Positions 14,008 to 63,003 of a stretch of 64,000 bases of DNA are shown in pieces. The notes beneath the pieces were generated by a model, which had not been told where the DNA came from, searched no databases, and saw only the letters and a list, made by a program, of their open reading frames with translations. Origin of the DNA: Candidatus Kaiserbacteria bacterium (GTDB lineage Bacteria; Patescibacteriota; Minisyncoccia; Phycocordibacterales; UBA2100); assembly GCA_028286585.1 (NCBI GenBank), contig JAQBRI010000009.1, forward strand, positions 28,010 to 92,009, in the 5' to 3' direction. A program made the translations under genes and the position numbers. Every line of letters begins with the position of its first letter. Position 1 is the first letter of the stretch.

Positions 14008-14817
14008 TTATTGCTCGAGAAGCGCCAGCCCTCCGTACAACCCCCCATCATCTTTGAGCTGTGAGTGTATGAGTCGCGGTATCGTTGGGAATTTATGCAT
14101 AAGTAGTTTTAAGTGTTCCGTTACACTCTCAACAGATATTCCAATTTCATTAAACATGGATCCACCCAAGACGATAGTGTCTGGAGACCACTCGAGTATC
14201 ATGTTGTGCACCCCAATCGCAGTAATGCGTGCAAGATCTTCCCATACTGGAGAATCTTTGCCCAGATCGCGCGGATGCATTCCATATTTTTTGTGAATAG
14301 CTGAGCCGGATACGAGTTCTTCAAATGTTTCAAGACTATCGCCATGCGAAAGATACTGACCGCCTATTTCAAATCCTTCAGTTGAGCGGTCGATATGTCC
14401 GTCAATAATTCGCACTCCATTTACTCCAGTCGAAATGGTAAGATACGCCATGATCGCACTTCCTACACCTGCTCCATATTTATTTTCACCAAGCCCAACC
14501 AGCGCCGTATCATTCTCAAGCGTGACCGTACACTCAAGCGCTTGCGCCAAATCATCTGCCAGCGGCTTACCGATCCATTCCATGAGATGCTCTGCTGTTG
14601 CAAGTGAGCGCTTATCATGAGAAAGCACACCAGGTACCCCCGCAACAAAGCGATCAATTGCTCCGCCTTCTGCAAGTTGTTTTGCCATTTGAACTATCAA
14701 TTCCAAACCCTGTTCATATTGCTGAGGTGTTTCAACATGCGTTGAACTGATCGATGTGTGCGCATTTGAAGCAACGCGCATTTTTGTTCCTCCAATATCA
14801 GCAAGGATTGCACGCAT
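14008..14817 (-). CDS. ROK/BadF-type sugar kinase (glucokinase-like)
   Basis: ILADIGGTKMRVA N-terminal ATPase phosphate-1 motif and GVPGV; actin-fold sugar kinase size (269 aa). Adjacent to PGI/PMI. Confidence 0.6.
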   Translation of the reverse strand: MRAILADIGGTKMRVASNAHTSISSTHVETPQQYEQGLELIVQMAKQLAEGGAIDRFVAGVPGVLSHDKRSLATAEHLMEWIGKPLADDLAQALECTVTLENDTALVGLGENKYGAGVGSAIMAYLTISTGVNGVRIIDGHIDRSTEGFEIGGQYLSHGDSLETFEELVSGSAIHKKYGMHPRDLGKDSPVWEDLARITAIGVHNMILEWSPDTIVLGGSMFNEIGISVESVTEHLKLLMHKFPTIPRLIHSQLKDDGGLYGGLALLEQ

Positions 14818-14818
14818 A

Positions 14819-15799
14819 TTATTCGGACATACGTTTTTTAAACTCAGCTATAAGCGGCGTTTGAGGGAATGGTACTCCATAGCCTGTCGCAAGCTCTCGC
14901 GCAACTGCATCCCCCAGTAATATCGTTTTAAACGCCTTACTAAAGCCGGTATCCGATAACTCTACCGTATACACCCCGATACCTTTTTCGATGAGCATCT
15001 GGCTTGCAACCTGCATACGCTTTTGTATGCGCGGATTGTCATTTGGGTCCGCAAAAATGACAACGCCCATGGAATCTGTGATTTTACTCGTACTTTCTGT
15101 AACATCAAATCCGGATAAATCATTGTGACAAAGCTCTGGGCAGACATCAATAAATGCCGGTACCTTTGTTGTTTCATTAAAATGTACTTTCCAAATATAA
15201 GAGAGCGGCGTGTTTACGTTCGAAGCCCAAATAAGTGGTATTTTGTTTTTGAGAAAAAGTGCAATCGTATTTACTGTGTCTTGATGAGGAAAAAGATCTT
15301 CACGTACACCGGCAAGCAAAATTTCTTGTTGCAATGCATCATCTTCTAGTATCAATGCCAACGCCCGCATTCCAAAACCAATCGCAAGACGAGGCTCAAG
15401 TCCGATTTCTGGAAGAATAACGAGCGGTATGTTATGAGTGCGAGCAAAATCAGCCAACTCGCCACCTGTCGTGATAGCGGCAAGCGAGCATCCGCGTACC
15501 AAGGCCTCAGCAGCTGCATCCAAAATTTCTTCGGTATTACCAGAATACGAACTCAAAATAACTAATGTATCCTTGGGATCATATATTCCTGAGTCATACA
15601 TATACACTGGGAGTCCATAATCACGATGAATGCTCAGTTCGGGTTGATTATCAAAATTTTTGACAAGCCATGCCGGCAAATGCGACCCTCCCATACCGCA
15701 AACAATTGTATGTGGTTTATGCTGCAAAAAATGGCTTCTTTCAACCTTTAACTCAGTTGTGAATTGAGATTGAAATTGTATGTGTAAATCTTCATGCAT
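14819..15799 (-). CDS. Bifunctional phosphoglucose/phosphomannose isomerase (SIS domain, archaeal/CPR type)
   Basis: SIS-domain profile (IVCGMGGSHLPA, SYSGNTEE) and about 326 aa typical of PGI/PMI family. Confidence 0.65.
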   Translation of the reverse strand: MHEDLHIQFQSQFTTELKVERSHFLQHKPHTIVCGMGGSHLPAWLVKNFDNQPELSIHRDYGLPVYMYDSGIYDPKDTLVILSSYSGNTEEILDAAAEALVRGCSLAAITTGGELADFARTHNIPLVILPEIGLEPRLAIGFGMRALALILEDDALQQEILLAGVREDLFPHQDTVNTIALFLKNKIPLIWASNVNTPLSYIWKVHFNETTKVPAFIDVCPELCHNDLSGFDVTESTSKITDSMGVVIFADPNDNPRIQKRMQVASQMLIEKGIGVYTVELSDTGFSKAFKTILLGDAVARELATGYGVPFPQTPLIAEFKKRMSE

Positions 15800-15843
15800 T
15801 TAATAATTGTACCATATTTTAGTATTTCAAAAACAGCGCCGTA

Positions 15844-17802
15844 TTATTTTTTTAAGTGCAGCATGCATTCCAAATATGCTTGTACTGTAAGTACATATGC
15901 CGCATGTGTCCACGCGAGCGGCGTTGCTCCTACCTGTTCGCCAGTGTAGGGATTTAACTGTTCAGACAGCACTCCCGAAGGCTGCGCGTGCAATACAACC
16001 CAATCAAAAATATCAGTAGCCTTTTTCATGTCTGCAATATTTTCTGCACTACGAATGATATATTCTGCATACCACAAAGTGGTGAGTACCCATGGATTTC
16101 CTGGAGCTGTGCTATCGATACGAAAATATTCATCATTCTCAAATCGTGCAACGCCTCCTGCAAGAATATTTTTTGTAAGTATTTTGATAGAAGTATTCCA
16201 CGCTCGAATCATGCGATCATCATGTACATCAAGTACTTCAAATTTCATAAGTCCATACACGCTCGAAATATCAACGGTACGATCGTATTCCATTTTTTCA
16301 CCAGTGTGAGTAATCATATTTATGAACACACCCTTTTCCTCATCCCACAAGTGTTCAAGAATCGCCGCTCGTATTTCATGTGCGACCGTCAGATACTGTA
16401 CTTCCAAATCCGATTTACCCAATATTTTTGCCATTTCGCTTGCGGCAACGAGAGCGCCATACACACTTGCGCTCGTGTATGTACTAGTTCCTCGTTTGCG
16501 CTCCCATAAATCATATGAAGGAAATGGCAGGTGTGTTCTCCCATCACGATAATGGATCATAAATTCAGCGGGCTTTTTTACCAGCACATCAAACATTGCT
16601 TCCAAAAACTCCAAATCACGACTCTGTTGAAAGTGATTGTAGAGCGCGACGACAACAATCGCCGTTTCGTCCTCTTGTATCGGAAGCTGCGGATGTCCGT
16701 CTTTGATCCATGGGTGCCACGAAGAGCCAAACGATCCGTCTGCCCAAAACTTATGCAAAAAATATCCATCTGCCGATATTACGCGTGCACAAAATTTAAA
16801 GAATCGTTTTGCTGCACTGGTGTCACCTACAATATCCAGCATGGTTGCCGCATATGCTGCGTCACGCGGCCATACATATGCATATGTATCGTATCCCCAC
16901 TGCAGCATGTCGGAATCAAGCGAGGCGATGATTCCGCCCTGACCATCGAGATGGGCGCGAACATACATTAATGATTTGGTATAGAGTTGAGATTGTACAG
17001 AAGACAATTTTGAAAGATCGGTCGTGTATGTCTTGATCCATGCGCGCCAATATTCGCGCGTACTTAACACAATGTGTGAAGCAGTTTTTTGTCGCACACT
17101 ATGATCAAGCGCACGTGCCTCATGAATTGAGTGTGCTGCAAGAAGCCAGTAATGACATACTCGTGATTGCCCTACAGCATATTGACCATAAAATCCTATT
17201 ACAGAGTCCGCGGGTCCATGTTCAATAGCGTTTTGTGACAGCATGCCATCATCACAATCTCGGTGTGTACCTTCTTGATTGTTATATCCTGCGCGCCCTG
17301 TCGCATAATCCTGAAATTGTTCGCCGTCCAAATTACCTGACATTAAAAAAGCTCGTTTGTCTTTGTAGTGCACGATTGAATGCGATTCAGGATCAAAAAA
17401 GGCAGTATCTCCGCCATGAGCTTTGTATATTTCAAACTGCTGCCCAAAATACAATTTGATTTCGCGGATACGGTCTGCACCGTTCGTGACTCGTACGCGC
17501 CGTACAAACACCGGTTGTTCATTATAAATAATATCGGTAAATAATAGTTCTATTTGTAGGTTATTATTTCGGGCAATGATACTTGAAGCAAGTGCATTAT
17601 TTTCGCAGGTGACGACGACGCTCCAATCAGGGTCTGATATCCAACTCATCACTCCTTCAACCCATACACCAACGCGATGCAAATAATGTCCGCGTACATG
17701 ATCCTCTTGTCCCACATGCGGATAATAAATATCCCGCACCTGGCCGACACTATCAAGTGCGACGGCAAGTTCGCCATTGGAAAGTATCATAGAGCGAGAC
17801 AT
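15844..17802 (-). CDS. Glycoside hydrolase family 15 (glucoamylase/glucodextranase-like) with N-terminal beta-domain
   Basis: GYDTYAYVWPRDAAYAATML and other (alpha/alpha)6-barrel GH15 motifs; 652 aa matches bacterial GH15 with N-domain. Confidence 0.75.
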   Translation of the reverse strand: MSRSMILSNGELAVALDSVGQVRDIYYPHVGQEDHVRGHYLHRVGVWVEGVMSWISDPDWSVVVTCENNALASSIIARNNNLQIELLFTDIIYNEQPVFVRRVRVTNGADRIREIKLYFGQQFEIYKAHGGDTAFFDPESHSIVHYKDKRAFLMSGNLDGEQFQDYATGRAGYNNQEGTHRDCDDGMLSQNAIEHGPADSVIGFYGQYAVGQSRVCHYWLLAAHSIHEARALDHSVRQKTASHIVLSTREYWRAWIKTYTTDLSKLSSVQSQLYTKSLMYVRAHLDGQGGIIASLDSDMLQWGYDTYAYVWPRDAAYAATMLDIVGDTSAAKRFFKFCARVISADGYFLHKFWADGSFGSSWHPWIKDGHPQLPIQEDETAIVVVALYNHFQQSRDLEFLEAMFDVLVKKPAEFMIHYRDGRTHLPFPSYDLWERKRGTSTYTSASVYGALVAASEMAKILGKSDLEVQYLTVAHEIRAAILEHLWDEEKGVFINMITHTGEKMEYDRTVDISSVYGLMKFEVLDVHDDRMIRAWNTSIKILTKNILAGGVARFENDEYFRIDSTAPGNPWVLTTLWYAEYIIRSAENIADMKKATDIFDWVVLHAQPSGVLSEQLNPYTGEQVGATPLAWTHAAYVLTVQAYLECMLHLKK

Positions 17803-17846
17803 AATATGATTATTGTAACATCATAAAATTACGATATAGTGTTCGT

Positions 17847-18335
17847 ATGAATACGCCTCCTTCGCATTACACAGATGATCATCGCATTACGAGCGAAGAC
17901 TTGTTTAACGCTAGCTCATACGAGGAATTAGCACAAATTGCACTGGGCGAACTCAAGTCTCTTGGAAATGCAGTCTCAATTGTCTGCGGACCAATAACGA
18001 CAGGCGGCCGCGGATCGATCAAGGACAACGTTGCGGTATTTGGAGCAACCATCAAAAAATTATCCGAAACGAATATATTGTTTAACCAGGTGCCCTACGA
18101 GGGCTCAATCGCACGCCTACGGCAAATATGGCACAACGAAGGCAACACCGGATACTGTATGCCAATACTTGATGTGTTTTATGCCCAACTCTTTGAGAGC
18201 GGCAATATTACCAAAGCATATTTTATTCCAGGCTGGGAATCATCATTTGGTGCACGTTGGGAACATAACGAAATGAAATTACATGGAGTAGAAATCGTGT
18301 ACCTTACCGACGAATGGATCGATAGTATTATATAA
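17847..18335 (+). CDS. Hypothetical protein (162 aa)
   Basis: ORF between divergent GH15 and GH57 genes; no recognised motifs. Confidence 0.35.
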   Translation: MNTPPSHYTDDHRITSEDLFNASSYEELAQIALGELKSLGNAVSIVCGPITTGGRGSIKDNVAVFGATIKKLSETNILFNQVPYEGSIARLRQIWHNEGNTGYCMPILDVFYAQLFESGNITKAYFIPGWESSFGARWEHNEMKLHGVEIVYLTDEWIDSII

Positions 18336-18342
18336 AAACTAT

Positions 18343-19536
18343 TTATTTTGCCCGCTCAACACGAAGCCTGAGATCCGAGAGTGCATTCATGTACGCAATG
18401 TATGCGTCATATGGTGATTCATAGGGAGAAAAATATGCGTGCACATCGCCGTCATTCGCATATTTGGTACACATATAGTAAAAGTGATCCGACGTCTGCA
18501 TTCGGCGCCAATCTTCGAGGATGCGACCGTCGTTTGCCAAGAGTACACCATCTTCAAGTGCATACACCGCATCAATTGCCGCACGCTGTAGCGGATTTCC
18601 TGTCCACGCAGACAAATCGCGGTCGGTGTCTGCCCACGTCACGATGTCTGGCATATCGATTTCATCTTTTGTATCAAAACTGCGCGAAACTTCGGATGGA
18701 GTCATAAATGTAATTCCTGGATTTTTGGCAACCTCTTGCGGCAGTGCCTCCAAAAAGTGAAAGATGCCAGTGTCCTCCCACTGGTGCTCACCAAACGTCT
18801 CATAGTCCATAAACAAATTTACAGTGTCTCCCGGCGCTTCACCAAGCCAAGCACCAAATTTTTCACTCGTGAGCGGCCATTCAGCCCAGTCTTGTGATGA
18901 AAAACGAAATGCGACATCATCAGAAAGTTTATAATTTTTAAGCAGTAGCTTTATCCGATTTGCTCCGACCGGTTTATATACATAATTTGGACTGCGCCAT
19001 CCCAAAACTGGATCCCATCCTTCTGCAAGAATAGTTTCATACCCGTTCTTGTCGGCCCAATGTGCCAAATCATTGCGATATGACAGTTCAGTGTTACGAA
19101 ATGTTCGTGGCCATACGCCAAAAAGTCGGCGTACAAGCTCGCGGTGCTTTGCTACCTGACGCTCAAACTCGGGCTGTGAATAAAAGAAGGAGAGCGAATG
19201 GTAATATGTCTCGCCAAGTACTTCGACTTGTCCTGTATCAATGACGCGCTTAAACAAATCAAGCGCTTCAGGGACATATTGCTCCAGCTGCTCGAGCGCA
19301 ATGCCAGAAAAAGAAAATGACACGTGCATTTCCGGATGCCGCTGCAAGAGCTTGAGCAATAACGACGTCGCAGGAATGTATGATTTGCGGGCAACTTTTT
19401 CGACAATACGTCGATTGTTCAAATCGGTCTCACTTCGATCATTAAAATACTCAGTATCGTGCCCAATATCAAATACTCGGTACTTTTTTACACGATAGGG
19501 TTGGTGAACTTGAAAATAAAAACAAAGTGCCTTCAT
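18343..19536 (-). CDS. Glycoside hydrolase family 57 protein (alpha-glucan processing)
   Basis: N-terminal ALCFYFQVHQPYR (FHQP motif hallmark of GH57), about 397 aa. Confidence 0.7.
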   Translation of the reverse strand: MKALCFYFQVHQPYRVKKYRVFDIGHDTEYFNDRSETDLNNRRIVEKVARKSYIPATSLLLKLLQRHPEMHVSFSFSGIALEQLEQYVPEALDLFKRVIDTGQVEVLGETYYHSLSFFYSQPEFERQVAKHRELVRRLFGVWPRTFRNTELSYRNDLAHWADKNGYETILAEGWDPVLGWRSPNYVYKPVGANRIKLLLKNYKLSDDVAFRFSSQDWAEWPLTSEKFGAWLGEAPGDTVNLFMDYETFGEHQWEDTGIFHFLEALPQEVAKNPGITFMTPSEVSRSFDTKDEIDMPDIVTWADTDRDLSAWTGNPLQRAAIDAVYALEDGVLLANDGRILEDWRRMQTSDHFYYMCTKYANDGDVHAYFSPYESPYDAYIAYMNALSDLRLRVERAK

Positions 19537-19542
19537 GTCCGC

Positions 19543-20802
19543 TTATTGTACACCACTCTCACTTACTTCACGTATGATTCTATCCACATTTTGTGCCGCA
19601 CGATCCCATGTAATGCTTAATGCTTCGTTTTGTGCATAATCACTCAGCGTAGCGTGGAGCATCGGGTGCTCAATTACTGCCAAAATCTTGTTTGCCATCT
19701 CATCCGTGTCCCAAAAGTCTACTTTAAGTGCATGAAAGACGACTTCCGAGACGCCAGACTGCTTGGAAATAAGAACAGGGGTCCCCAATCGCATTGCCTC
19801 AAGCGGAGTGATTCCAAATGGCTCGGAAACAGATGGCATAACAAATAAATCGGCGACAGCGTATGCCATAGTCCGATCATCCCCTTGCAAAAAACCTGTA
19901 AACAGAACATTTTGCCCAATACCGAGCGCCGCAGACATTTCCATAACAGACCGATCCATATCACCCGAGCCAGAAATAACAAAAATAACCTTTTTGTTTT
20001 GCTGCAGTACTCGGGCAGCAGCCTTAAGAAAGTAGTCTGGGCCTTTTTGAAGCGTAATGCGTCCCAAAAACAGCACGATCGAATAGCCCGACGCCTTGAG
20101 TGCGCGCAAGCTTGCAATACCAGGTAGTGCCTTTGGCATTGTTGTTTCGTCGATTCCGTTATGTACAACCACTATTTTGTTTGGATCGATTCCGTAGTAT
20201 TTGACGATAATATCTTTGGTCAGTTGTGATACCGCTATTACCCTATCTGCTGTTTGCATACCGAGTTTCTCAAGTTCAAATACAACCGGGTTAACACCAT
20301 CAATACCACCACACCTGTCTACTTCTGTTGCATGCACGTGCGCAATGAGTGGACGCCCGGTAATACGTTTTGCCTCGATTCCTGCACCAAACGAAAGCCA
20401 ATCATGTGCATATATGACATCACATTCCTCAGATTTTGCGATTTCTCCCGCCTGCAATGAATAGCGCAATACTTGTCCCAACAAATCCTCACCATAGATA
20501 TTTGCATCAACGACAGTGCCGTTACTCAATGTTACCTTCCCCGATCGCGAGGTGTACGGAGTAATGGTCGAAGATATACCGATAGTCCTGATACTTTTGC
20601 CGCTTATTTCTTCTACTGAGTATTCGACACTGTCGGCAAAAAGTATTTTTGCAAAAGCAGATTCAACAGGCAGTTTTTTTGGCATGACAAACGTAACATC
20701 CATTCCTCGCGATGTAAGAGCCCGAGTCAGTCCCAAGCATGCGACGCCTAATCCTCCGCTATTAAACGGAGGAAATTCCCAGCCAAACATTAGTATGCGC
20801 AT
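19543..20802 (-). CDS. Glycosyltransferase (GT-B, glycogen/alpha-glucan synthase-like)
   Basis: Start at MRILMFGWEFPPFNSGGLGVACLGLTRAL, the KIAxVxxEyxPxxKTGGLGDV-type N-terminal motif of glycogen synthase-like GT-B enzymes. The ORF track's extra 13 codons are likely non-coding. Confidence 0.65.
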   Translation of the reverse strand: MRILMFGWEFPPFNSGGLGVACLGLTRALTSRGMDVTFVMPKKLPVESAFAKILFADSVEYSVEEISGKSIRTIGISSTITPYTSRSGKVTLSNGTVVDANIYGEDLLGQVLRYSLQAGEIAKSEECDVIYAHDWLSFGAGIEAKRITGRPLIAHVHATEVDRCGGIDGVNPVVFELEKLGMQTADRVIAVSQLTKDIIVKYYGIDPNKIVVVHNGIDETTMPKALPGIASLRALKASGYSIVLFLGRITLQKGPDYFLKAAARVLQQNKKVIFVISGSGDMDRSVMEMSAALGIGQNVLFTGFLQGDDRTMAYAVADLFVMPSVSEPFGITPLEAMRLGTPVLISKQSGVSEVVFHALKVDFWDTDEMANKILAVIEHPMLHATLSDYAQNEALSITWDRAAQNVDRIIREVSESGVQ

Positions 20803-20888
20803 AGTAGTAGTGATAGGTAATCCCCAACCCGATTTTACCATGTATCTGCATCGCGCTGTCTATCCTATCCACTCTTTTCAGACTATTA

Positions 20889-21389
20889 TTATCGAGTGAC
20901 GCAAATCGGCGTCGGACTAGCCGAAACAGCAGTCTCACTCGCCGCTCCAGGCGCACAAACAGTAACTCGACCATTTGTGTCTACAGAAACCGTATAGCCC
21001 GTGCTTGGTGTAGTAGGCGCCGACGGATCGACTGGCAGCGTTGGAATGTATGTTGGTACCAAACAGTTGGTAGCAAGATCGGTATGTCCTGAAACTGTTG
21101 TTCCACCCGCATCTATGACAGATGCTGTGGCTCCAAGCGCTGGACATCCTCCAGTTGAAGCAAAAATACCTTTATTATCTGCTATTCGCTGCCCAATCGC
21201 GTTCAAAATTGCATTTACACTACTGGTTCTGTCTGTATTACGAGCCTGTGCAAATTGTCGCGCCGGATTAATCGCAATAATTACTATTGTTGCCAATATC
21301 GCAATGATGCCAATAACAACTAAAATTTCTATTAAAGTAAAACCACTCTGCGCTTGCGCGCTTTTAAACCGTTTTGTAACGGACCCCAT
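20889..21389 (-). CDS. Type IV pilin (prepilin with class-III signal; candidate major pilin)
   Basis: KRFKSAQAQSGFTLIEILVVIGIIAILATIVI is a prepilin leader with G/FTLIE cleavage-methylation site; Cys pair near C-terminus. Confidence 0.8.
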   Translation of the reverse strand: MGSVTKRFKSAQAQSGFTLIEILVVIGIIAILATIVIIAINPARQFAQARNTDRTSSVNAILNAIGQRIADNKGIFASTGGCPALGATASVIDAGGTTVSGHTDLATNCLVPTYIPTLPVDPSAPTTPSTGYTVSVDTNGRVTVCAPGAASETAVSASPTPICVTR

Positions 21390-21526: not shown

Positions 21527-22015
21527 CTATAAAATGTGAGTCCATAATTCCTCGGATTCGTCGTTACTTACAACACGCTTGAGCAGCGTCGGTTTTTTAC
21601 CGTCGAGACATGCACGAAACACATCATCTCCCGATTTGAACCGTATCTCGGCCGGATCCAAATTAACCTTCTCGACATAGTGCAAACTGAGGCAAATTTT
21701 CCTTCCATCATCGACCGCAAGCACAACGCCCGTACCGTTGGCCTCGACTGAAACTTTAAATCGAGTGGCGACGTACGAAAGCAGCGCAAAACCCATCGAG
21801 TAATCATTCGTTTTTCGCAAACCCAGAATCGTCATTCCCATGTTTGCAATCGTGCGCGATGGAAAGTCGGTCAGCGGACAAAAAGGAGCGACTTCATCCT
21901 TTTCGATAACAGCCTGATCAACTATTCTGCATACGTACACGCCGCCACTATAGTACGTATAATTGGTGCAATCCTTGCATGCAGATACAAGTCCGACAAT
22001 CTTTGGCGTCGACAT
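21527..22015 (-). CDS. Cys-rich cytoplasmic hypothetical protein embedded in pilus locus
   Basis: 162 aa, N-terminal CKDC..C.....C-like cysteine cluster (SACKDCTNYTYYSGGVYVC), no TM; own terminator. Confidence 0.4.
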   Translation of the reverse strand: MSTPKIVGLVSACKDCTNYTYYSGGVYVCRIVDQAVIEKDEVAPFCPLTDFPSRTIANMGMTILGLRKTNDYSMGFALLSYVATRFKVSVEANGTGVVLAVDDGRKICLSLHYVEKVNLDPAEIRFKSGDDVFRACLDGKKPTLLKRVVSNDESEELWTHIL

Positions 22016-22126: not shown

Positions 22127-22525
22127 TTAAAATGCCGCAGTGTTCAGAATTTGCATATGCAGGGTAAGCGTCACGTAAGATTTTCTATGACTAATTGCAT
22201 TTCCCTCTTTTGCCATAGTGATAATAATAATCTTGTTACCCTCGTGAACAATTGAAACGATGGTACAGGCGTGATTACTGTTTAGAATTACATTTTGATT
22301 ATGTACTGTATATGTTGATGGGTCTGCTGCTGTTGCGATGATTCTTAGTGCAATATCTATGCATCCTTGTGATTCCATTTGTGCATCACGATACTGTTCA
22401 CTTGTCAGTACATCGGCCCTGGCAAACCAGCCTGAAAATCCCACGGTAACCATAAGCGTAAGCAATATCGCACTGATAATTAGAACTGATATGAGTGCAA
22501 TAAAACCTCTATTTTCTTTTTTCAT
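22127..22525 (-). CDS. Pilus minor pilin/PilX-like protein (N-terminal hydrophobic anchor)
   Basis: MKKENRGFIALISVLIISAILLTLMV: PilX/GspK-like N-terminus lacking the canonical Glu5; position within the pilin operon. Confidence 0.5.
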   Translation of the reverse strand: MKKENRGFIALISVLIISAILLTLMVTVGFSGWFARADVLTSEQYRDAQMESQGCIDIALRIIATAADPSTYTVHNQNVILNSNHACTIVSIVHEGNKIIIITMAKEGNAISHRKSYVTLTLHMQILNTAAF

Positions 22526-22526
22526 A

Positions 22527-23009
22527 TTATTGATTCAATATGGAATGAAGATAAAATAATCGAGATACCATATGTCCATCACTAGTGGTCGCACTGGCGA
22601 CAAACTCTCCATCGAGGACGTCGAACGATTCATCTGAATTTGAAATTTTTGCATGCGTAAATGTAAGATCTTGCACAGAGATAGTGTCTGCATTAAGAAT
22701 GTGTGGATCATTACCGCCATCGATGATCAGATTTCCACCGGTACTATATATATTTGTTTCCGTTCCGGCGTCATCAACAACATTCAATGAAGCGCCCTGT
22801 GTCTGGGGAGCCGAAATAATTGATGATGATTGTACGATATAGGTTATTTTTGAAACAATAAAATCGCCTTCTTCCACTAAAAGAGCGATACTCTGATTGC
22901 GTACTTGTGATTCAAATAGTGAATAGAGCGCAACAATTACACCTCCCATAAGTATCGAATAAAGTGCTAAATACATAACAACTTCTATCAAGGTAAATCC
23001 CCGCCTCAT
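22527..23009 (-). CDS. Prepilin-type N-terminal cleavage/methylation domain protein (minor pilin)
   Basis: MRRGFTLIEVVMYLALYSILMGGVIV: class-III signal peptide with G/FTLIE. Confidence 0.75.
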   Translation of the reverse strand: MRRGFTLIEVVMYLALYSILMGGVIVALYSLFESQVRNQSIALLVEEGDFIVSKITYIVQSSSIISAPQTQGASLNVVDDAGTETNIYSTGGNLIIDGGNDPHILNADTISVQDLTFTHAKISNSDESFDVLDGEFVASATTSDGHMVSRLFYLHSILNQ

Positions 23010-24526
23010 AATCCGGCATGTATATCGCTGATAAATCCCCCACTTGCACTCGATCCGACATAGAGCGTGTTTTGTTCACAATCAATAGCGCGACCGTTTC
23101 CAGGTAAAGCGATGGTAGCAACACGATGTGGAGCGATTTGTAGTAAATCACTATCCACTTGTAACGATTGTCCCGTAGTGGTAAGTAAAAAAGCGTATTG
23201 TGGACGAACGATCATACCGATAATACTGCTGCTTGCTGTGGCAGTTGATATAACCATTGGCGTGCTGCGATCAATGGTGTTAAGAGTGTACAAATCCGGT
23301 GCTCCTGCAGCAAAAGTGAGTCCAAGGTATGTGGTAGTTCCAATTACGTTCACGCTGCTGCCGTTTCCCCAACCCTTGTTGTCATACACATTGTACTGAC
23401 TCACAAGCGTAGGATTAGTTGGATCATTAACATCAAGAATCAACAATTCGTGCGTCGAACTGTCTGTTGCTATATAGGCATAGCCGCGGCGTACATCAAT
23501 GTCACTTACTCCGGCACCGACAACATATCCACCCACCCATCTTGGATGCAGCGGATCGTGCACGTCTATAATATTAAACTCGGGACCGCCTGCAGATTTT
23601 GTAAGACCGAGATACACATAGCCACCAATCAAAATAATAGTTTTTCCAACTGCCTGGCCGCCGCTACCGTTGAGAAATGGAGTGCTACTGGTAGGTATTG
23701 TGAAATTGGCTACCACTGTAGGATTTACGGGATTTGTAATTGCTAGTACCTGCAACTGGGCGCAGCTGGCTGACGTATGACATGTTTTAAAGTTTGCCGC
23801 GTGACCATTCGCTGCAAACACATACGAACCATTTGAGGCGATATTTTCGAGTCCATCAATACTGGAAGAATTTGTGTCAATTCCGCCTTTGTAAATCCAA
23901 TTATTTGGATCTTGCACGTCAACGACAAAGAATGAATCGTTAAGCTTGTTGCTAGTCGTTCCTACCGCGATAGACATGATGCCTCGATAGACATCCACAC
24001 TGGTTACTGGATTCGATGTTGAATACGTATGTCCCGCCGGTTGCGTTGGGGGCAGCAGGTCACCAATACTTATTTTATGATTATTAATGCTTGCATGTGC
24101 CCAGTTTCCGCCAAGCGCTCCACAAGTATCATATGACAGAGCATTCATGTAGTCGGTAAGGGCAGATACCATGGTAACTGTCTGCAAAGCCCCACCACGA
24201 TCACTCCACGACACCTTTGTGGTCGCCAAGCGCACTGCGTATGGATCATACGATGAATCTCCAATTGTAAGAGTAGAGGTAAATACTCCATCGGAGGATG
24301 TTGCGAGATTAGCAAGAGATCTTTCATCTGCATGCGCAGCAACTTGTGCATTTTCAAGCATTGTTTCAGCGTGCACAATAGCTTGGTTGTGCATAGTACC
24401 TGATAACAGTATCGATTGTCCTTCGTACGATATCAAAGCCATTGAACCTACCGTGCATGAAATTATTGCAAGCGCTATGACTATCTCGATTGTGGAAAAT
24501 GCCCTCGAATAGACTAGCGACTCCAT
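23006..24526 (-). CDS. Large pilin-like protein with LVIVD-type beta-propeller repeats (PilY1/tip-adhesin analog candidate)
   Basis: N-terminal FSTIEIVIALAIIS pseudopilin-like hydrophobic segment; repeated motifs YVYLG...FNIIDVHDPLHPRWVGGY, LLILDVNDPTNPTLVSQY, FFVVDVQDPNNW resemble LVIVD repeats. Confidence 0.5.
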   Translation of the reverse strand: MESLVYSRAFSTIEIVIALAIISCTVGSMALISYEGQSILLSGTMHNQAIVHAETMLENAQVAAHADERSLANLATSSDGVFTSTLTIGDSSYDPYAVRLATTKVSWSDRGGALQTVTMVSALTDYMNALSYDTCGALGGNWAHASINNHKISIGDLLPPTQPAGHTYSTSNPVTSVDVYRGIMSIAVGTTSNKLNDSFFVVDVQDPNNWIYKGGIDTNSSSIDGLENIASNGSYVFAANGHAANFKTCHTSASCAQLQVLAITNPVNPTVVANFTIPTSSTPFLNGSGGQAVGKTIILIGGYVYLGLTKSAGGPEFNIIDVHDPLHPRWVGGYVVGAGVSDIDVRRGYAYIATDSSTHELLILDVNDPTNPTLVSQYNVYDNKGWGNGSSVNVIGTTTYLGLTFAAGAPDLYTLNTIDRSTPMVISTATASSSIIGMIVRPQYAFLLTTTGQSLQVDSDLLQIAPHRVATIALPGNGRAIDCEQNTLYVGSSASGGFISDIHAGL

Positions 24527-24966
24527 AGTATTCGTCCAATGCTGCTAATTGTAATAGTAGCTGTCTTTCCAAATGAATCAGTAAGTAAAAAATTGCCCGA
24601 TGTTGCGACTGATCCGGAAAGAGAGGCGAATACCACTTCTGACAAACCTGTATATGTGGTGTGTTCACTCTTTTCAAAAGAAACCGAATATGATCCATCA
24701 CTATCTGCATATGAATTACCTTGAAAAACTACAATTTGATTTTGTGTGACGGCTACGCCATGAGCAGGAGAAATGTCGCAAGCACCGCTACAGACTCCCT
24801 GCATTGAAAGAGCACGCGCATGTTCGAAAAGAGTCACAAGCCTTTCCCTATCAGAGCGCAATTCTACACTTCGATATTCTCCAATGGAGGCTGCTATTGT
24901 TAGCCCGCCAATGATGAGTAACAAGGCTATTACAATAATAATTTCAATGATAGAAAAACCCCGCAT
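24514..24966 (-). CDS. Prepilin-type N-terminal cleavage/methylation domain protein (minor pilin)
   Basis: MRGFSIIEIIIVIALLLIIGGLTIA class-III signal. Confidence 0.75.
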   Translation of the reverse strand: MRGFSIIEIIIVIALLLIIGGLTIAASIGEYRSVELRSDRERLVTLFEHARALSMQGVCSGACDISPAHGVAVTQNQIVVFQGNSYADSDGSYSVSFEKSEHTTYTGLSEVVFASLSGSVATSGNFLLTDSFGKTATITISSIGRILWSR

Positions 24967-24967
24967 A

Positions 24968-26035
24968 TTAATGATTGCTAATGCTTTGTGTCAGCTGATA
25001 AATGGGAGTAATTATCGAAAGTGCAATAAACTCGACAATACTTCCCATCACAAGCATGAGGAGCGGCTCGATAAGCGTAGTAAGATTTTTGGTCATCTCT
25101 TTTACTTCTTGTTCATAATTTTCTGATATGTAACCAAAACTTTCTTGGAGTCGCCCTGTCATTTCACCAGAATGGATAATATGTACAAACATTGATGGGA
25201 ACAACCGAGGATGATGCGAAAGAGCATCTGCAACAGTGCTGCCCTCTTCTACACCAACTGCGATGAATGAAATAACATGCCTATACTGTGCAGATCCTGT
25301 CGTCGTACTAATAAGTTTTAAAACAGCTGCAGCTTGTATGCCGCTTAATAATAATGCACTGCCAGTGCGCGCAATTAGAGATAATTCGTAGCTTTGTAAT
25401 AGACCACCAATTATTGGTACGCGAAAAAGTATCCGTTCAAACAAATGTCTAAAAAATGGGACTCTTATGCACATTCCAAATACAACTAAACAGACAACTG
25501 CACCAAAAATTGCAATGTACCAATCGTGGATCAAAAAATCTGATACTCCTATTAAAATGCGGGTGGAAAGCGGCAATACGGTGTGAACACTTTTAAATAT
25601 CGGTGTAAGTTTTGGGAAAAGATAGACTGCCAAAAATAGGGATATGCACATCGTTGCGAGAATAATGATGATTGGATAGATAAGTGCGGCAATTACAGTA
25701 TTACGTAATTCTGCACGTTTTTTAAGCTCATCGGACACATATATAAGCGACTGATGCAGCGAACCTGACTCCTCTCCTATCTTCACCAGATTGATCGTCA
25801 GTGGAATAAATACTTTTGGAAACTTTTGCAAAGCCTGGGAAAATCGTATGCCATGCTGCACTTCGTGGAGGAGTGTTGTAATAATATATTTTGTATTTTT
25901 TGAGCTCTCCGAAAAACCTATCATCTTTAAAACTTCTCCTAATGGAATTCCAGCACGTAACATCATTGCAATACGTTTAAAAAGTACAACTTGCTGCTTG
26001 TTAGACAAACGCAGCATGTATGGCTTATCATTCAT
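24968..26035 (-). CDS. pilC: Type IV pilus assembly platform protein PilC / GspF family
   Basis: 355 aa, three TM segments with two cytoplasmic GspF-type domains (LLxxGxPLxEAL-like: LRAGIPLGEVLK; SGIQAAAVLK). Confidence 0.8.
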   Translation of the reverse strand: MNDKPYMLRLSNKQQVVLFKRIAMMLRAGIPLGEVLKMIGFSESSKNTKYIITTLLHEVQHGIRFSQALQKFPKVFIPLTINLVKIGEESGSLHQSLIYVSDELKKRAELRNTVIAALIYPIIIILATMCISLFLAVYLFPKLTPIFKSVHTVLPLSTRILIGVSDFLIHDWYIAIFGAVVCLVVFGMCIRVPFFRHLFERILFRVPIIGGLLQSYELSLIARTGSALLLSGIQAAAVLKLISTTTGSAQYRHVISFIAVGVEEGSTVADALSHHPRLFPSMFVHIIHSGEMTGRLQESFGYISENYEQEVKEMTKNLTTLIEPLLMLVMGSIVEFIALSIITPIYQLTQSISNH

Positions 26036-27359
26036 GCGTAAGTCGAAGCGTTTCTTCGAGCGTGGTAATTCCCTGTCGTGCTTTGAGGAGTGCGTCAGTA
26101 ATCATAATTTCCATTCCTTGCTTACATGCTTGGATACGTATTTCATCAGCGCTCGCGCGCATAACAATGCGCTCCCGAATTACTTCATCGATCTGCAATA
26201 ATTCATATACGCCAATGCGCCCTCTGTATCCAGTTCCAATACATTCTCCACAGCCACGTCCCCGATAAAACTGGGGATTGGTGTGCAATAACGAAAGTGG
26301 AGTAAGTTTTGAGACTTGTAATAATTCTGAATCCGTCAATGCTATTTTTTCACGGCAACCAATACAAATTTTTCGTACCAGTCGCTGTCCTATGACGAGG
26401 GTAACTGTAGACGCAATCAAATATGGCTCTACGTCCATATCAAGAAGACGCACGATGGTTGCCGCCGCATCGTTCGTATGAATACTCGACAAGACAAGGT
26501 GCCCAGTGAGCGCAGTATTTACAGCAAGCCGTGCGGTCTCTGTATCACGCACTTCTCCAACCATTACAATATCCGGATCTTGCCGCACGACTGCACGGAG
26601 TCCAGTTCCAAAAGTGAAGCCAATGGCGGGATTTACTTGGATTTGCCGAACTCCATGTATTGAATATTCTATCGGATCTTCAAGTGTAATAATTGATACA
26701 TCAGGCGTATTCAGTTGTGAAATCAAGGTGTACAACGTTGTCGTTTTGCCCGAACCTGTAGGACCTGTCGCAAGTATCATGCCATGTGTACGAGCGAGTG
26801 CGCGCTGTATTATTTGCTGCTGCAGATTACTAAAACCCAATTCGGGAAGACCATTAGCATTATTCATATTAGTGAGTAATCGCAATACAGCATTTTCGCC
26901 ACAATAGGTGGGTGTAATCGATACTCGCACGTCTACAATTATCGGTAGGGTTGTAGATTGTTTTATGTGAATAATTTCAGAGCGAAATCGCCCATCATGC
27001 GGCATGTAATGCTCATCGATGCGCAAACCTGCCATAACCTTTATGCGCGATATCACTTCGGAGTGTAATCCGATTGGTATGGTGTAGACATCTTGCAGTA
27101 TTCCATCGATACGCATGCGCACCATGACTATTCCATCACGCGGATCAATATGTACGTCGGACACCTTTGCAAAATATCCGTGAGATATCAATGCATCAAT
27201 AATTTTGATTGCTGAATTACCTATAATTTTTGTTATGTCCACGGGTCCGCTCTCTCGCGTAGGAATTTGCGTCGTATCAAAACAAAAAACACCCTCGGTA
27301 GGTGTTTCAGACGTGCTTTTTGCACGCGTAACAAACGCATGGAGACCCCGAATATCCAT
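26028..27359 (-). CDS. pilB: Type IV pilus assembly ATPase PilB / GspE family
   Basis: Walker A GPTGSGKTT, Asp box, His box, and tetracysteine motif CIGCRE...CGECIGTGYRGR characteristic of GspE/PilB; overlaps pilC by 8 bp. Confidence 0.9.
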   Translation of the reverse strand: MDIRGLHAFVTRAKSTSETPTEGVFCFDTTQIPTRESGPVDITKIIGNSAIKIIDALISHGYFAKVSDVHIDPRDGIVMVRMRIDGILQDVYTIPIGLHSEVISRIKVMAGLRIDEHYMPHDGRFRSEIIHIKQSTTLPIIVDVRVSITPTYCGENAVLRLLTNMNNANGLPELGFSNLQQQIIQRALARTHGMILATGPTGSGKTTTLYTLISQLNTPDVSIITLEDPIEYSIHGVRQIQVNPAIGFTFGTGLRAVVRQDPDIVMVGEVRDTETARLAVNTALTGHLVLSSIHTNDAAATIVRLLDMDVEPYLIASTVTLVIGQRLVRKICIGCREKIALTDSELLQVSKLTPLSLLHTNPQFYRGRGCGECIGTGYRGRIGVYELLQIDEVIRERIVMRASADEIRIQACKQGMEIMITDALLKARQGITTLEETLRLTHE

Positions 27360-32828: not shown

Positions 32829-32904
32829 TGGTGCTTGGGGCCGGGGTCGAACCGGCGACCCTTCCCTCTTCAGGGGAATGCTCTACCAACTGAGCTACCC
32901 AAGC
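32829..32904 (-). tRNA. tRNA-Phe (anticodon GAA), CCA encoded
   Basis: Reverse complement folds as GCTTGGG/CCCAAGC acceptor, GCTC/GAGC D-stem, TTCCC-CTGAAGA-GGGAA anticodon arm (U33-GAA-G37), GCCGG-TTCGACC-CCGGC T-arm, ACCA 3' end; 76 nt. Confidence 0.9.
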
Positions 32905-33366: not shown

Positions 33367-33441
33367 TGGTGCCCTTGGCGGGAATCGAACCTACATCTAC
33401 CCCTTAGGACGGGGCTGTTCTATCCATTGAACTACAAGGGC
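33367..33441 (-). tRNA. tRNA-Arg (anticodon CCU), CCA encoded
   Basis: Reverse complement: GCCCTTG/CAAGGGC acceptor, GTTC/GAAC D-stem, GCCCC-GTCCTAA-GGGGT anticodon arm (U33-CCU-A37), GTAGG-TTCGATT-CCCGC T-arm (one mismatch), ACCA; 75 nt. Confidence 0.75.
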
Positions 33442-36618: not shown

Positions 36619-38154
36619 TTAGCCCTCAGAATCAACATCTTTGATTGTTTGGTCGATATAGGTCTGTGCATGTATCAGACGTTCCTGCACCTTTTTTATA
36701 TATGCAGCATCCTCTGGAGCAAGCGTAGTCGCAGCATTACTCTTTTCGAGATCATTCTTTTGCTGTTCCAGTCCCTGTTTAATATTCAAGAGCTTTTCGT
36801 GCGTATCATTTTTAACTTTTTTTACTTCTTCGCTCATGTCTTTGCTGCGTAGTTTTTCGGAGCGACGTAAACGATTCCAGAGGACGAAGTTCATCAACAA
36901 GGAGAGAAGCGAGAGGAGTAATGCTGCCGGTAGTTCGAGTGATCCGTAATTAAATGTCCGAACTTGATCGAAGAAATTCGACTGTGCCGTATGCGCTATC
37001 GGCACCACAAAAGATAATTGATCGGAATCTGCGTAATTACCCGCATTATCAAACACTCGAAGGACTGCGGTATGCGTGCCGACCGACGATGTAACTGGAA
37101 TTCGGACAAAACCGCTTGCAAACTGTGCCTGAGATAATGTGTCAGTTGTCGTACCATCAATCAGCACCTGGTAGGTATTGATACCAGCATATGCATCCTC
37201 TGCGCTTGCCTGAATAAAGAGCGCACTACTTGTTGCATCATACGTAATGAGGGAATTAAGTACTGGAGCAGATGTGTCGATTTGGAGACGATATGACTTG
37301 ACACTACTCCAGCCGGCAGGCGTATGTGCACGAATATTAAAATACCAAACACCATCATTCACTGGATCAAATGTTTTTATTGAAATAGGCGAGTGATACA
37401 CCGCGGTTGGAATTTTACCGCTAGTTTGACTTAATTCTGCCTGCACTGAATCGATGTCACTTGAGACGGTCCATGATATTGCTGGAGACGCATTTGCATA
37501 CCAAACGCTTTCAGATGGATGCGTTGGTGATGAAATATCAATTGTTGTCGTCTCAGCTGCTGGCTTTACTGTACTTTTGACCGGTAGAACCGTTGGCTTA
37601 ACAACAGGAGAAGCAGGCGCCTTGGTTGCTGCTTCAGAAATACTAATGGTCGAGCTTTGTGATGAGCGAAGCACGTCGGTACCAAGACCATCGTTTGCGC
37701 GGACAGCACCGCCCACAACTGACACCGCAGCGCTACCGGCAGATTTTGCACGCAGCGTGACATTGAAAAGCCGTCCGTTTGTACCCTGATAACCCGGTGA
37801 TGGCACGCCGCCGTTAAACGTCACGCCGCCGTTACCGTCGGATGCTGGAGCGTCAATCCAAAGCGTGAACAAAGAAACATCTTTATTTATTGAAACAAGA
37901 TCGAACTTATCTCGTGGATATATAAGTGTGCCTTCTCCGCTATTTATTGCAACTCCTTCGCTATTAACGACAATACCCAAAGTCACAGTTGAACCAATAG
38001 TGATCGAACTTGCGCTAGGGACTATTGAGAGAATCGCAGCATACGACTGTGATGTACCGAGTACAGATAGTAGCAATACAAAAAATAAAATGCGTCCTGA
38101 AATATTAAAGCGTTGCATATTTTTTGCGGCGATATTGTAGCCAGATAAAAACAA
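36619..38154 (-). CDS. Membrane-anchored surface protein with N-terminal cohesin-like domain, Ig-like/FN3-like middle region, C-terminal TM and coiled-coil cytoplasmic tail
   Basis: Signal peptide. LSIVPSASSITIGSTVTLGIVVNSEGVAINSGEGTLIYPRDKFDLVSIN...GRLFNVTLRAKSAGSAAVSV follows the strand/Gly pattern of cohesin domains; this is visual recognition only. C-terminal LELPAALLLSLLSLLMNFVLW TM plus charged coiled coil. Confidence 0.45.
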   Translation of the reverse strand: MFLSGYNIAAKNMQRFNISGRILFFVLLLSVLGTSQSYAAILSIVPSASSITIGSTVTLGIVVNSEGVAINSGEGTLIYPRDKFDLVSINKDVSLFTLWIDAPASDGNGGVTFNGGVPSPGYQGTNGRLFNVTLRAKSAGSAAVSVVGGAVRANDGLGTDVLRSSQSSTISISEAATKAPASPVVKPTVLPVKSTVKPAAETTTIDISSPTHPSESVWYANASPAISWTVSSDIDSVQAELSQTSGKIPTAVYHSPISIKTFDPVNDGVWYFNIRAHTPAGWSSVKSYRLQIDTSAPVLNSLITYDATSSALFIQASAEDAYAGINTYQVLIDGTTTDTLSQAQFASGFVRIPVTSSVGTHTAVLRVFDNAGNYADSDQLSFVVPIAHTAQSNFFDQVRTFNYGSLELPAALLLSLLSLLMNFVLWNRLRRSEKLRSKDMSEEVKKVKNDTHEKLLNIKQGLEQQKNDLEKSNAATTLAPEDAAYIKKVQERLIHAQTYIDQTIKDVDSEG

Positions 38155-62635: not shown

Positions 62636-62637
62636 AT

Positions 62638-63003
62638 CTACAACTGTGTATACTTTGTGTGCCGCCCTTTGGCCTTTGCTACCGGGTATTTCTCACCATT
62701 TTTCTTCATCTTTTTTTCAAGTGCATCAGAAATATCAATTTTAAGATCATTACACATTAGCAGTACCCAATAGAATACATCGGCTAACTCTTCGGCAACA
62801 TCTTCTTTATTTGTCTTTATGTGTGCCTCCATTTCTTCTTTATTTTTCCATTGAAAATGTTCCATGACTTCGGCAGCCTCTAAAACCAAGGAAATGGCTG
62901 TGTCTTTTGGGTTATGAAATTGTTTCCAATCACGAGCGTCACGAAATGAGACCACGAGCTTTTTGAGCTCCGCAAGGCTCTTTTGGGTCTTTTTTGTCGT
63001 CAT
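62638..63003 (-). CDS. MazG-like nucleoside triphosphate pyrophosphohydrolase
   Basis: LEAAEVMEHFQW and EELADVFYWVLLMCNDLKIDISDALEKKMKKNGEKYP are the EExxE...ExxD all-alpha NTP-PPase (MazG) motifs; 121 aa. Confidence 0.7.
   Translation of the reverse strand: MTTKKTQKSLAELKKLVVSFRDARDWKQFHNPKDTAISLVLEAAEVMEHFQWKNKEEMEAHIKTNKEDVAEELADVFYWVLLMCNDLKIDISDALEKKMKKNGEKYPVAKAKGRHTKYTQL

What the first reader, a model, noticed from the sequence alone, without database searches (positions are those of the whole stretch)
23006..24526. 506-aa pilin-like protein with LVIVD-type beta-propeller repeats (candidate pilus tip adhesin)
The N-terminus carries a pseudopilin-like hydrophobic segment (FSTIEIVIAL). 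The remainder contains at least 4-5 repeats of the form hh(I/L)DV.DP..P..V..Y, reminiscent of LVIVD repeats, which form beta-propellers in some archaeal and bacterial surface proteins. A propeller displayed on a pilin anchor would be a functional analog of the PilY1/PilC tip adhesins and is a candidate host-recognition element.
Basis: inference. Interest (0 to 1): 0.55.

Follow-up and report, generated by a model that had tools for sequence, protein, structure and literature searches.

The report
Pilus subunit carrying a beta-propeller
This gene from an ultrasmall Kaiserbacteria (Patescibacteria) genome encodes a type IV pilus minor subunit fused to a seven-bladed LVIVD beta-propeller, most likely shown at the pilus tip as a binding module; the design is already catalogued and has an experimentally studied relative, so it is a solid but not surprising find.

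Summary
ORF 23006..24526 (-) encodes 506 aa with a prepilin-type N-terminus (MESLVYSRA|FSTIE, Glu at +5). Pfam LVIVD matches at E 2e-9, above the gathering score.

The gene sits in a translationally coupled operon: PilB, PilC, minor pilin, this gene, two more minor pilins (the last lacks Glu5, like GspK/PilX), then the major pilin. This order recurs in all 21 related Patescibacteria loci fetched. The family is large: the best 150 representative clusters all score E<1e-131.

Most likely it is a modular GspI/PilV-class minor pilin displaying its propeller at the pilus tip as a ligand-binding module. That function is inferred. The propeller is acidic in all 61 members, which argues against a DNA receptor. 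It evolves more slowly than the neighbouring minor pilins, so there is no sign of diversifying host recognition.

It is not new in kind. Pilin+LVIVD architectures are listed in Raynaud et al. 2021, and TM7x PilX2, a pilin with an RCC1-repeat propeller, is needed for efficient host binding.

The parts
23006..24526 (-). Whole gene: 506-aa bimodular minor type IV pilin (pilin module plus LVIVD beta-propeller). Identical to NCBI 'hypothetical protein JWO50_713 [Candidatus Kaiserbacteria bacterium]'.
24500..24526 (-). Predicted class III (prepilin) leader peptide, aa 1-9 MESLVYSRA. Cleavage is inferred after Ala9.
   Evidence: Sequence and family alignment. Cleavage not tested.
24329..24499 (-). 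Alpha-1 helix of the pilin module, aa 10-66 (FSTIEIVIAL...), with Glu at mature position 5.
24137..24328 (-). Four-stranded antiparallel sheet of the pilin module (strands aa 74-78, 83-90, 98-108, 114-124) and the start of the linker. GspI/PilV-class fold.
23009..24136 (-). Seven-bladed LVIVD beta-propeller, aa 131-506. The N-terminal strand 141-151 closes blade 7 (478-505). Conserved Cys pairs C135/C483 and C249/C255. Blade 3 (aa 290-336) is the most conserved.
23390..23509 (-). Best-scoring Pfam LVIVD repeat, aa 340-379 (blade 4).
26028..27359 (-). Assembly ATPase (PilB/GspE type, Pfam T2SSE). First gene of the operon.
24968..26035 (-). Platform protein (PilC/GspF type, Pfam T2SSF). Its start overlaps the end of the PilB gene by 8 nt.
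24514..24966 (-). 150-aa minor pilin (MRG|FSIIE) with a weak GspH-like match. Its end overlaps the start of the target gene by 13 nt.
22527..23009 (-). 160-aa minor pilin (MRRG|FTLIE), N_methyl above the Pfam threshold. Its start overlaps the target's stop by 4 nt. GspJ/PilW position by gene order only.
22127..22525 (-). 132-aa minor pilin lacking Glu5 (NRG|FIALI), with a weak GspK N-terminal match. GspK/PilX-like.
20889..21389 (-). 166-aa major pilin candidate (SG|FTLIE). N_methyl and TIGR02532 are above their cut-offs. 94.6% identical to the closest relative's copy.

Best explanation
The gene encodes a modular minor type IV pilin. A prepilin-type N-terminus and a small GspI/PilV-class pilin module (aa 1 to about 130) serve as the carrier. 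A seven-bladed LVIVD beta-propeller (aa about 131-506) is the cargo.

Inferred mechanism:
1. The protein inserts in the membrane by its N-terminal helix.
2. A prepilin peptidase removes the 9-residue leader after Ala9.
3. Together with the three neighbouring minor pilins (H-like, J-like and the Glu5-less K-like one) it forms the complex that primes assembly by PilB/PilC.
4. That complex then rides at the distal tip of a filament made of the 166-aa major pilin.

A 40-kDa rigidly attached propeller cannot be packed along the filament body, so it is exposed at the tip. There it acts as a ligand-binding module for the surface of a partner or host cell, as expected for an episymbiotic Patescibacterium.

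Shown here: the architecture, the fold, the operon and its conservation. Inferred: leader processing, tip location and the ligand.
For: - Prepilin motif with Glu5, conserved across the family.
- High-confidence model with pilin helix, sheet and 7-blade propeller. pTM 0.87 implies a fixed orientation between the modules.
- Family N-domains match XpsI (19/30), PilV (15/30), GspI (10/30) and ComGE (29/30).
- LVIVD above the Pfam threshold in the target and in 58/61 members.
- The operon PilB-PilC-minor-TARGET-minor-minor(no Glu5)-...-major pilin has overlapping or abutting reading frames. The same order occurs in all 21 related loci, from MAGs labelled Kaiserbacteria, Paceibacterota, Doudnabacteria, Lloydbacteria and Saccharibacteria.
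- Two co-conserved Cys pairs fit an extracellular protein.
- Longer members carry arrays of Ig-like repeats after the propeller, as adhesins do. That could not fit inside a filament.
- Precedents: TM7x PilX2, a minor pilin with a C-terminal 7-bladed propeller, is needed for efficient host binding (PMC12206443). Modular pilins are proposed to be tip-exposed (PMC8179133).
Against: - No ligand is known, and no experiment exists for this family.
- Ala rather than Gly sits at -1 in this member. The Pfam N_methyl and TIGR02532 models do not reach threshold on it.
- No prepilin peptidase, PilM/N/O or PilT gene lies in the 64-kb window.
- The propeller is more conserved than the pilin module. The whole protein (77.5% identity to the closest relative) changes less than the other minor pilins (62-70%).
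- It is a fixed operon member across distant lineages. That fits a conserved structural or priming role, or a conserved ligand, better than a host-specific receptor-binding protein.
- The assignments of the neighbours to H, J and K classes rest on weak matches and gene order.
Confidence: 0.6

Rival explanations
1. Assembly cap rather than adhesin. The propeller does what the C-terminal propeller of PilY1 does in diderm T4aP: it completes the minor-pilin priming complex, stabilises the tip and counteracts retraction. It would have no ligand of its own. This overlaps with the best explanation, since both put it at the tip.
For: - The gene is a fixed member of the operon in all 21 loci.
- No PilY1-type gene is present in these operons.
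- The propeller, blade 3 above all, is the best-conserved part.
- The protein evolves more slowly than the other minor pilins.
Against: - There is no sequence relation to the PilY1 domain; Pfam finds only LVIVD and Beta_propel.
- Members with long Ig-like C-terminal arrays look like adhesins.
- In TM7x the propeller pilin PilX2 is not needed for filament extrusion (PMC11623550).
Confidence: 0.2
2. DNA receptor of a competence-type pilus. The operon (ATPase, platform, pilins, no PilT/M/N/O nearby) resembles comG operons. The propeller would capture extracellular DNA, as ComZ or ComP do.
For: - 29 of 30 family N-domains hit the ComGE model, best E 1.6e-7.
- The operon is compact and lacks a retraction ATPase.
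- From general knowledge, not tested here: Patescibacteria depend on imported nucleotides.
Against: - The propeller is acidic in every one of 61 members (net charge -3 to -24, median -11, median pI 4.7).
- The ATPase and platform score higher to GspE/PilB and GspF/PilC than to ComGA/ComGB.
- The YncE resemblance is the generic 7-blade fold, shared with hundreds of WD40 proteins at the same Z.
Confidence: 0.07
3. Tip-displayed or membrane-anchored enzyme. The propeller is catalytic, like the LVIVD-type phosphotriesterase Sb-PTE, and acts on the partner's envelope.
For: - The best Foldseek match is 5hrm, phosphotriesterase from Sphingobium sp. TCM1 (E 4.8e-11).
- 5hrm is also the best, though weak, PDB sequence-profile hit (E 0.0045).
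- Raynaud et al. list pilins carrying peptidase modules.
Against: - TM-scores to 5hrm are only 0.46-0.47, with 12% identity.
- No His is among the invariant or nearly invariant columns. The conserved polar residues are D, E, K and Q, several of them being the Asp of the LVIVD motif itself. I did not compare them with the metal ligands of Sb-PTE.
Confidence: 0.05
4. Not part of a filament. The N-terminal helix is an uncleaved membrane anchor, and the propeller sits at the cell surface or in the wall zone. Alternatively the operon builds a short T2SS-like pseudopilus rather than an extended pilus.
For: - Ala at -1, and the N_methyl models below threshold on this member.
- The best NCBIfam match of the ATPase and the platform is GspE and GspF.
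- The minor pilins resemble GspH/I/K.
Against: - Glu5 and the leader pattern are conserved in 57/61 members, 49 of them with Gly at -1.
- A highly conserved major pilin is encoded in the same operon.
- GspE versus PilB scores are close, and all are below the cut-offs.
- From general knowledge, not tested here: Patescibacteria lack an outer membrane, so a classical T2SS has no role.
Confidence: 0.08

Closest known systems
Modular type IV pilins (Streptococcus sanguinis PilB with a vWA module, PilC with a lectin module), including the catalogued InterPro architecture IPR012902 - IPR013211 (LVIVD)
   Same: A small pilin module with a class III signal carries a bulky module not specific to pilus biology, joined by a short linker. 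Such pilins are proposed to be tip-exposed and to bind ligands (PMC8179133). Dataset S1 of that paper lists about 30 proteins with a prepilin motif plus 1 to 13 IPR013211 repeats, including a Candidatus Falkowbacteria protein. IPR013211 is the LVIVD repeat (PMC10210494).
   Different: There the LVIVD module was called a 'motif of unknown function' and was not studied. Here it is shown to be a closed 7-blade propeller on a GspI/PilV-class carrier, in a fixed operon position. Most members escape an IPR012902-based census: only 4 of 61 match N_methyl.
PilX2 of Nanosynbacter lyticus TM7x (Saccharibacteria)
   Same: A Patescibacteria minor pilin with a C-terminal seven-bladed beta-propeller. It is encoded among pilins and is required for efficient host binding and competitive fitness. 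The authors propose it as the tip adhesin (PMC12206443 and PMC11623550).
   Different: The PilX2 propeller has RCC1 repeats, and no PilD signal peptide was predicted. The present protein has LVIVD repeats and a canonical prepilin motif. PilX2 lies in a pilin-only locus apart from its machinery.
PilY1 / PilC tip-associated adhesins of diderm type IVa pili
   Same: A seven-bladed propeller associated with the tip complex of four core minor pilins. Roles in adhesion and in priming and stabilising the pilus (as summarised in PMC8179133).
   Different: PilY1 is not a pilin: it docks on the minor pilins through its propeller and carries variable N-terminal modules. Here the propeller is fused directly to a pilin. 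No PilY1 Pfam domain is detected, and PilY1 is not among the top structural matches.
GspI / PilV-class core minor pilins (EpsI, XcpV, GspI; GspK pilin core)
   Different: All sequence matches are below the curated cut-offs (PilV 17.3 bits against 52.2). Known GspI/PilV proteins have no C-terminal module.
Other large tip pilins: ComZ (beta-solenoid), CofB/TcpB (beta-repeat plus lectin-like domain), GspK (alpha-domain)
   Same: A minor pilin enlarged by an extra structural domain and placed at the filament tip (discussed in PMC8179133).
   Different: The extra domains have different folds. ComZ and GspK carry theirs as insertions in the pilin sheet, whereas here the module is appended after the last pilin strand.

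Membership tests
Type IV pilins (class III signal peptide proteins) | Short hydrophilic leader ending in Gly (rarely Ala), then a hydrophobic stretch of about 20 residues with Glu at mature position 5 | tested here: met
   MESLVYSRA|FSTIEIVIALAIIS. 57/61 family members have [G/A]|hydrophobic-xxxE, 49 of them with Gly at -1. E14 is conserved in at least 90%.
Type IV pilins (class III signal peptide proteins) | Match to the curated N-methylation motif models (Pfam PF07963, TIGR02532) above threshold | tested here: not met
   No PF07963 or TIGR02532 hit on the target at E<=1. Only 4/61 family members reach E<=0.01 for PF07963. The motif is visible by eye, but these short models are weak on this family.
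Type IV pilins (class III signal peptide proteins) | Pilin fold: a long N-terminal alpha-helix packed on an antiparallel beta-sheet | tested here: met
Type IV pilins (class III signal peptide proteins) | Encoded with type IV filament machinery (ATPase, platform, other pilins) | tested here: met
   The PilB-PilC-pilins operon is found in the window and in all 21 related loci.
Type IV pilins (class III signal peptide proteins) | Processing by a prepilin peptidase and incorporation in the filament | not testable with these tools
   No A24 peptidase gene is found in the 64-kb window. The rest of the genome was not available.
LVIVD repeat proteins (Pfam PF08309 / IPR013211) | Score above the Pfam gathering threshold | tested here: met
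   37 bits against a cut-off of 20.2, E 2.1e-9. 58/61 homologues match.
LVIVD repeat proteins (Pfam PF08309 / IPR013211) | Repeats of four strands that assemble into a beta-propeller | tested here: met
Modular type IV pilins (sense of Raynaud et al. 2021) | An N-terminal pilin module plus a further module that is a domain not specific to pilus biology | tested here: met
   Pilin module aa 1 to about 130 plus LVIVD propeller aa about 131-506. The architecture IPR012902-IPR013211 is listed in their Dataset S1.
GspI / PilV core minor pilins | Match to the curated models (TIGR01707 gspI, TIGR02523 PilV, NF047828 XpsI) above cut-off | tested here: not met
   PilV 17.3 bits (cut-off 52.2), XpsI 14.1 (150), GspI 13.0 (44.35) on the N-domain. 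The hits are consistent in class but sub-threshold.
GspI / PilV core minor pilins | Small GspI-type fold, and second position among four minor pilins whose last member lacks Glu5 | tested here: met
PilY1 / PilC adhesins | C-terminal PilY1-type propeller domain (IPR008707), and not a pilin | tested here: not met
   No such Pfam hit on the target or on the 61 members. The protein has a prepilin N-terminus. It is an analogue at most.
TM7x PilX2-type propeller pilins | RCC1-repeat seven-bladed propeller on a pilin without a predicted PilD signal | tested here: not met
   Pfam finds LVIVD, not RCC1, and a canonical prepilin motif is present. Seven blades and the Patescibacteria origin are shared. 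No direct sequence comparison was made.
Choice-of-anchor B proteins (TIGR04312) | Score above the curated cut-off | tested here: not met
   23.5 bits against a cut-off of 100, covering aa 318-412 only.

The most novel reading that the evidence does not exclude
The LVIVD-propeller pilin could be the universal tip organiser and partner-recognition device of a type IV pilus conserved across much of the non-Saccharibacteria Patescibacteria. In effect it would be a single-chain fusion of the PilV-type core minor pilin with the role that PilY1 plays in diderms. The invariant blade-3 loop (K310...GPEF...D321) would then bind a ligand common to many host envelopes, such as a wall glycopolymer. That would give one conserved handle on how these uncultivated episymbionts first attach.
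Probability: 0.25. Interest if true: 0.6.

Novelty: new member of a known kind. Interest (0 to 1): 0.38.

Why it matters
Patescibacteria are thought to live attached to other microbes, and type IV pili are among their few conserved surface machines. For most lineages the molecule that touches the host is unknown.

This protein belongs to a large, strictly syntenic family that gives a concrete candidate outside Saccharibacteria. The soluble module (aa about 131-506) is well defined and confidently modelled. It could be expressed and tested on glycan arrays, cell walls or DNA.

The work also shows that censuses of modular pilins based on the N-methylation signature miss most of this family: only 4 of 61 members match it.

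It does not change the current picture. Propeller-bearing and other modular minor pilins are already described, one of them experimentally in a Saccharibacterium.

Tried and rejected
Codon alignments against the two closest syntenic relatives (L020 at 77% identity, L021 at 62%) gave dS of 1-2 or undefined. dS is saturated, so the ratios are not usable; only relative dN and identity are reported.
- **Fold search in the AlphaFold database.** The afdb50 library was not available, so structural relatives in UniProt could not be listed.
- **The search for related loci with the 61-sequence alignment.** It failed for lack of a conserved stretch. A 19-sequence alignment worked.
- **Search with the pilin module alone.** This was meant to find stand-alone relatives. 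It returned 19 short proteins, many of them on short contigs.
- **Two 'split' loci.** One (L023) has its T2SSE and T2SSF genes also broken into pieces. In the other (L022) the pilin part and the LVIVD part are only 13 nt apart. I read both as probable assembly frameshifts, not as evidence of a two-gene form.
- **Neighbouring minor pilins against PDB sequences.** Nothing useful came back, so their H/J/K labels stay tentative.
- **Literature searches.** 'LVIVD' with 'pilin', and 'LVIVD repeat' with 'beta-propeller', found only one unrelated preprint.
- **GC-rich stretch at 44-56 kb.** I first suspected an rRNA operon. Rfam found none; the stretch lies within a giant ORF.
- **PilY1 membership.** Considered and rejected, since no PilY1 domain is found.
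- **Mapping conserved residues onto the model's faces.** Not possible, because the model coordinates are not exposed to the script tool.
Full report
**Observation.** ORF 23006..24526 (minus strand) is open for 506 codons from an ATG. It is identical to an NCBI entry named only 'hypothetical protein JWO50_713 [Candidatus Kaiserbacteria bacterium]'. Its N-terminus, MESLVYSRA|FSTIEIVIALAIIS, has the form of a class III (prepilin) signal: a short polar leader, a small residue at -1 (here Ala), Phe at +1, Glu at +5, then a hydrophobic stretch.

In an alignment with 60 homologues (24-77% identity) the consensus is G|FSTLEILIA. 57 of 61 sequences carry the motif, and the other four are truncated gene calls. 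The Glu is conserved in at least 90%. Pfam LVIVD (PF08309) matches at E 2.1e-9, 37 bits against a gathering score of 20.2. It also matches 58 of the 61 family members.

**Structure.** AlphaFold2 on the 61-sequence alignment gave mean pLDDT 91.5 and pTM 0.87. The model has three parts:
- a helix spanning aa 3-66;
- four antiparallel strands (74-124);
- 28 further strands forming seven 4-stranded blades. The first strand after the linker (141-151) completes the last blade (478-505), the usual closure of a propeller.

**Context.** On the same strand, with overlapping or abutting frames, lie:
- a PilB/GspE-type ATPase (26028..27359);
- a PilC/GspF-type platform (24968..26035);
- a 150-aa minor pilin with a weak GspH match (24514..24966);
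- the target;
- a 160-aa minor pilin (22527..23009);
- a 132-aa pilin that lacks Glu5 and weakly matches the GspK N-terminus (22127..22525);
- an unrelated 162-aa ORF;
- a 166-aa major pilin (20889..21389).

The order ATPase, platform, minor, target, minor, minor, then major pilin recurs in all 21 related loci fetched. These come from MAGs labelled Kaiserbacteria, Paceibacterota, Doudnabacteria, Lloydbacteria and Saccharibacteria. No prepilin peptidase, PilM/N/O or PilT gene is in the window.

**Family size.** A profile search of 1.84 billion cluster representatives found 9598 proteins at E<=1e-30. This figure includes giant LVIVD proteins without a pilin end. The best 150 all score E<1e-131. 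Most are about 500-aa proteins matched from profile position about 5 to 501, that is, pilin end plus propeller. At least 79 of the 135 new ones (81 if two giant proteins are counted) carry a strict prepilin motif. Some members of 650-1073 aa add Ig-like repeat arrays after the propeller.

**Evolutionary rate.** Against the closest syntenic relative (L020):
- the target is 77.5% identical (dN 0.155);
- the major pilin is 94.6% identical (dN 0.031);
- PilB is 88% and PilC 80% identical;
- the three other minor pilins are 62-70% identical (dN 0.20-0.26).

dS is saturated, so dN/dS is not informative. Within the protein, the propeller is better conserved than the pilin module, and blade 3 (GLTK..GPEFNIIDVHDP) is the most conserved part of the family. 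Most nearly invariant polar residues (D217, G225, Q257, Q259, K310, E316) lie in D-to-A and B-to-C loops of blades 1-3. By the usual propeller topology these loops share one face. This is an inference from secondary structure, because coordinates could not be inspected.

Two Cys pairs (135/483 and 249/255) are co-conserved; C249 and C255 are absent together in about a dozen members. This fits disulfides in an extracellular protein. The propeller is acidic in all 61 members (median net charge -11, pI 4.7).

**Mechanism.** The best-supported reading is a modular minor pilin. After leader removal it joins the three other minor pilins in the priming complex and ends up at the pilus tip, exposing the propeller as a binding module. 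The architecture, fold, operon and conservation are shown. Processing, tip location and ligand are inferred.

Steric reasoning favours the tip: a rigidly attached 40-kDa module, in some members followed by hundreds of residues of Ig-like domains, cannot sit in the filament body. The conservation pattern fits a conserved ligand or a structural cap role better than strain-specific host recognition.

Rivals:
- a PilY1-like cap without a ligand (0.2), not exclusive of the main reading;
- a DNA receptor (0.07), weakened by the uniformly acidic surface;
- an enzyme (0.05), with no conserved His and only a loose fit to 5hrm;
- a non-filament membrane anchor or pseudopilus (0.08).

**Comparison with what is known.** Modular pilins were defined by Raynaud et al. 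2021 (PMC8179133). Their Dataset S1 already lists about 30 proteins combining the prepilin signature with IPR013211 repeats, including a Falkowbacteria protein. IPR013211 is the LVIVD repeat (PMC10210494). They called it a motif of unknown function and did not study it.

In Nanosynbacter lyticus TM7x, the minor pilin PilX2 has a C-terminal seven-bladed propeller with RCC1 repeats. It lacks a predicted PilD signal, is needed for efficient host binding and competition, and is proposed as the tip adhesin (PMC12206443, PMC11623550).

PilY1 is an analogue only. It is not a pilin, and no PilY1 domain is found here.

The present protein is therefore a new member of a known kind. What this analysis adds:
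- the LVIVD module is a closed 7-blade propeller;
- its carrier is GspI/PilV-like;
- the gene holds a fixed place in a widely conserved Patescibacteria pilus operon;
- signature-based surveys miss most of the family (N_methyl matches in 4 of 61).

**Verdict.** Observation confirmed and interpretation supported. The function is plausible but untested. Interest is moderate to low for a specialist (0.38).

Noticed in passing
window 38993..56818 (-): A giant ORF of 5941 aa (GTG start) coincides with the GC-rich (0.55-0.58), strongly C-skewed stretch at about 44-56 kb. Its C-terminal half has 21 matched fibronectin type III stretches and a C-terminal dockerin type I domain. Its N-terminal 2971 aa have no Pfam match. 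Two adjacent ORFs (36619..38154 and 38105..38974) carry Ig-like (Big_13)/DUF7743 matches.
   Followed up: partly
window 21527..22015 (-): A 162-aa Cys-rich non-pilin ORF with no Pfam or NCBIfam match sits inside the pilus operon, between the Glu5-less minor pilin and the major pilin. A 56%-identical copy is in the closest relative (L020), but it is absent from the other 20 loci.
   Followed up: partly
window 60629..63985 (-): A 668-aa fusion of a Schlafen-group-3-like helicase domain with an S24 (LexA-like) peptidase domain lies next to an AbiEii-type nucleotidyltransferase toxin ORF. This looks like a small defence or toxin-antitoxin island.
   Followed up: no
window 14008..20841 (-), with L001, L020, L021: A glycogen/starch-type cluster (GT4/GT5 glycosyltransferase, GH57, GH15, bacterial-type PGI, ROK kinase) lies directly downstream of the pilus operon. 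It keeps that position in relatives down to 44% identity of the target.
   Followed up: partly
L022 458..2078; L023 263..4892: In two metagenomic contigs the pilin module and the LVIVD part are called as separate genes. In L023 the neighbouring T2SSE and T2SSF genes are also broken into pieces. In L022 the two parts are 13 nt apart. These are probably assembly frameshifts rather than a natural two-gene form.
   Followed up: partly
P0143, P0146, P0149, P0157, P0175, P0180, P0203 (650-700 aa); P0121, P0144, P0154 (960-1070 aa): Subsets of the family differ in size. One group has about 170 extra residues between the pilin module and the propeller. Another has long C-terminal arrays of Ig-like repeats after the propeller.
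   Followed up: partly
window 20889..21389 (-): The major pilin is unusually conserved for a surface filament subunit: 94.6% and 84.3% identical to relatives whose PilB is 88% and 73% identical.
   Followed up: no
window 32832..32904 and 33370..33441 (-): Two tRNA genes are the only Rfam matches in the window. No rRNA is present.
   Followed up: no
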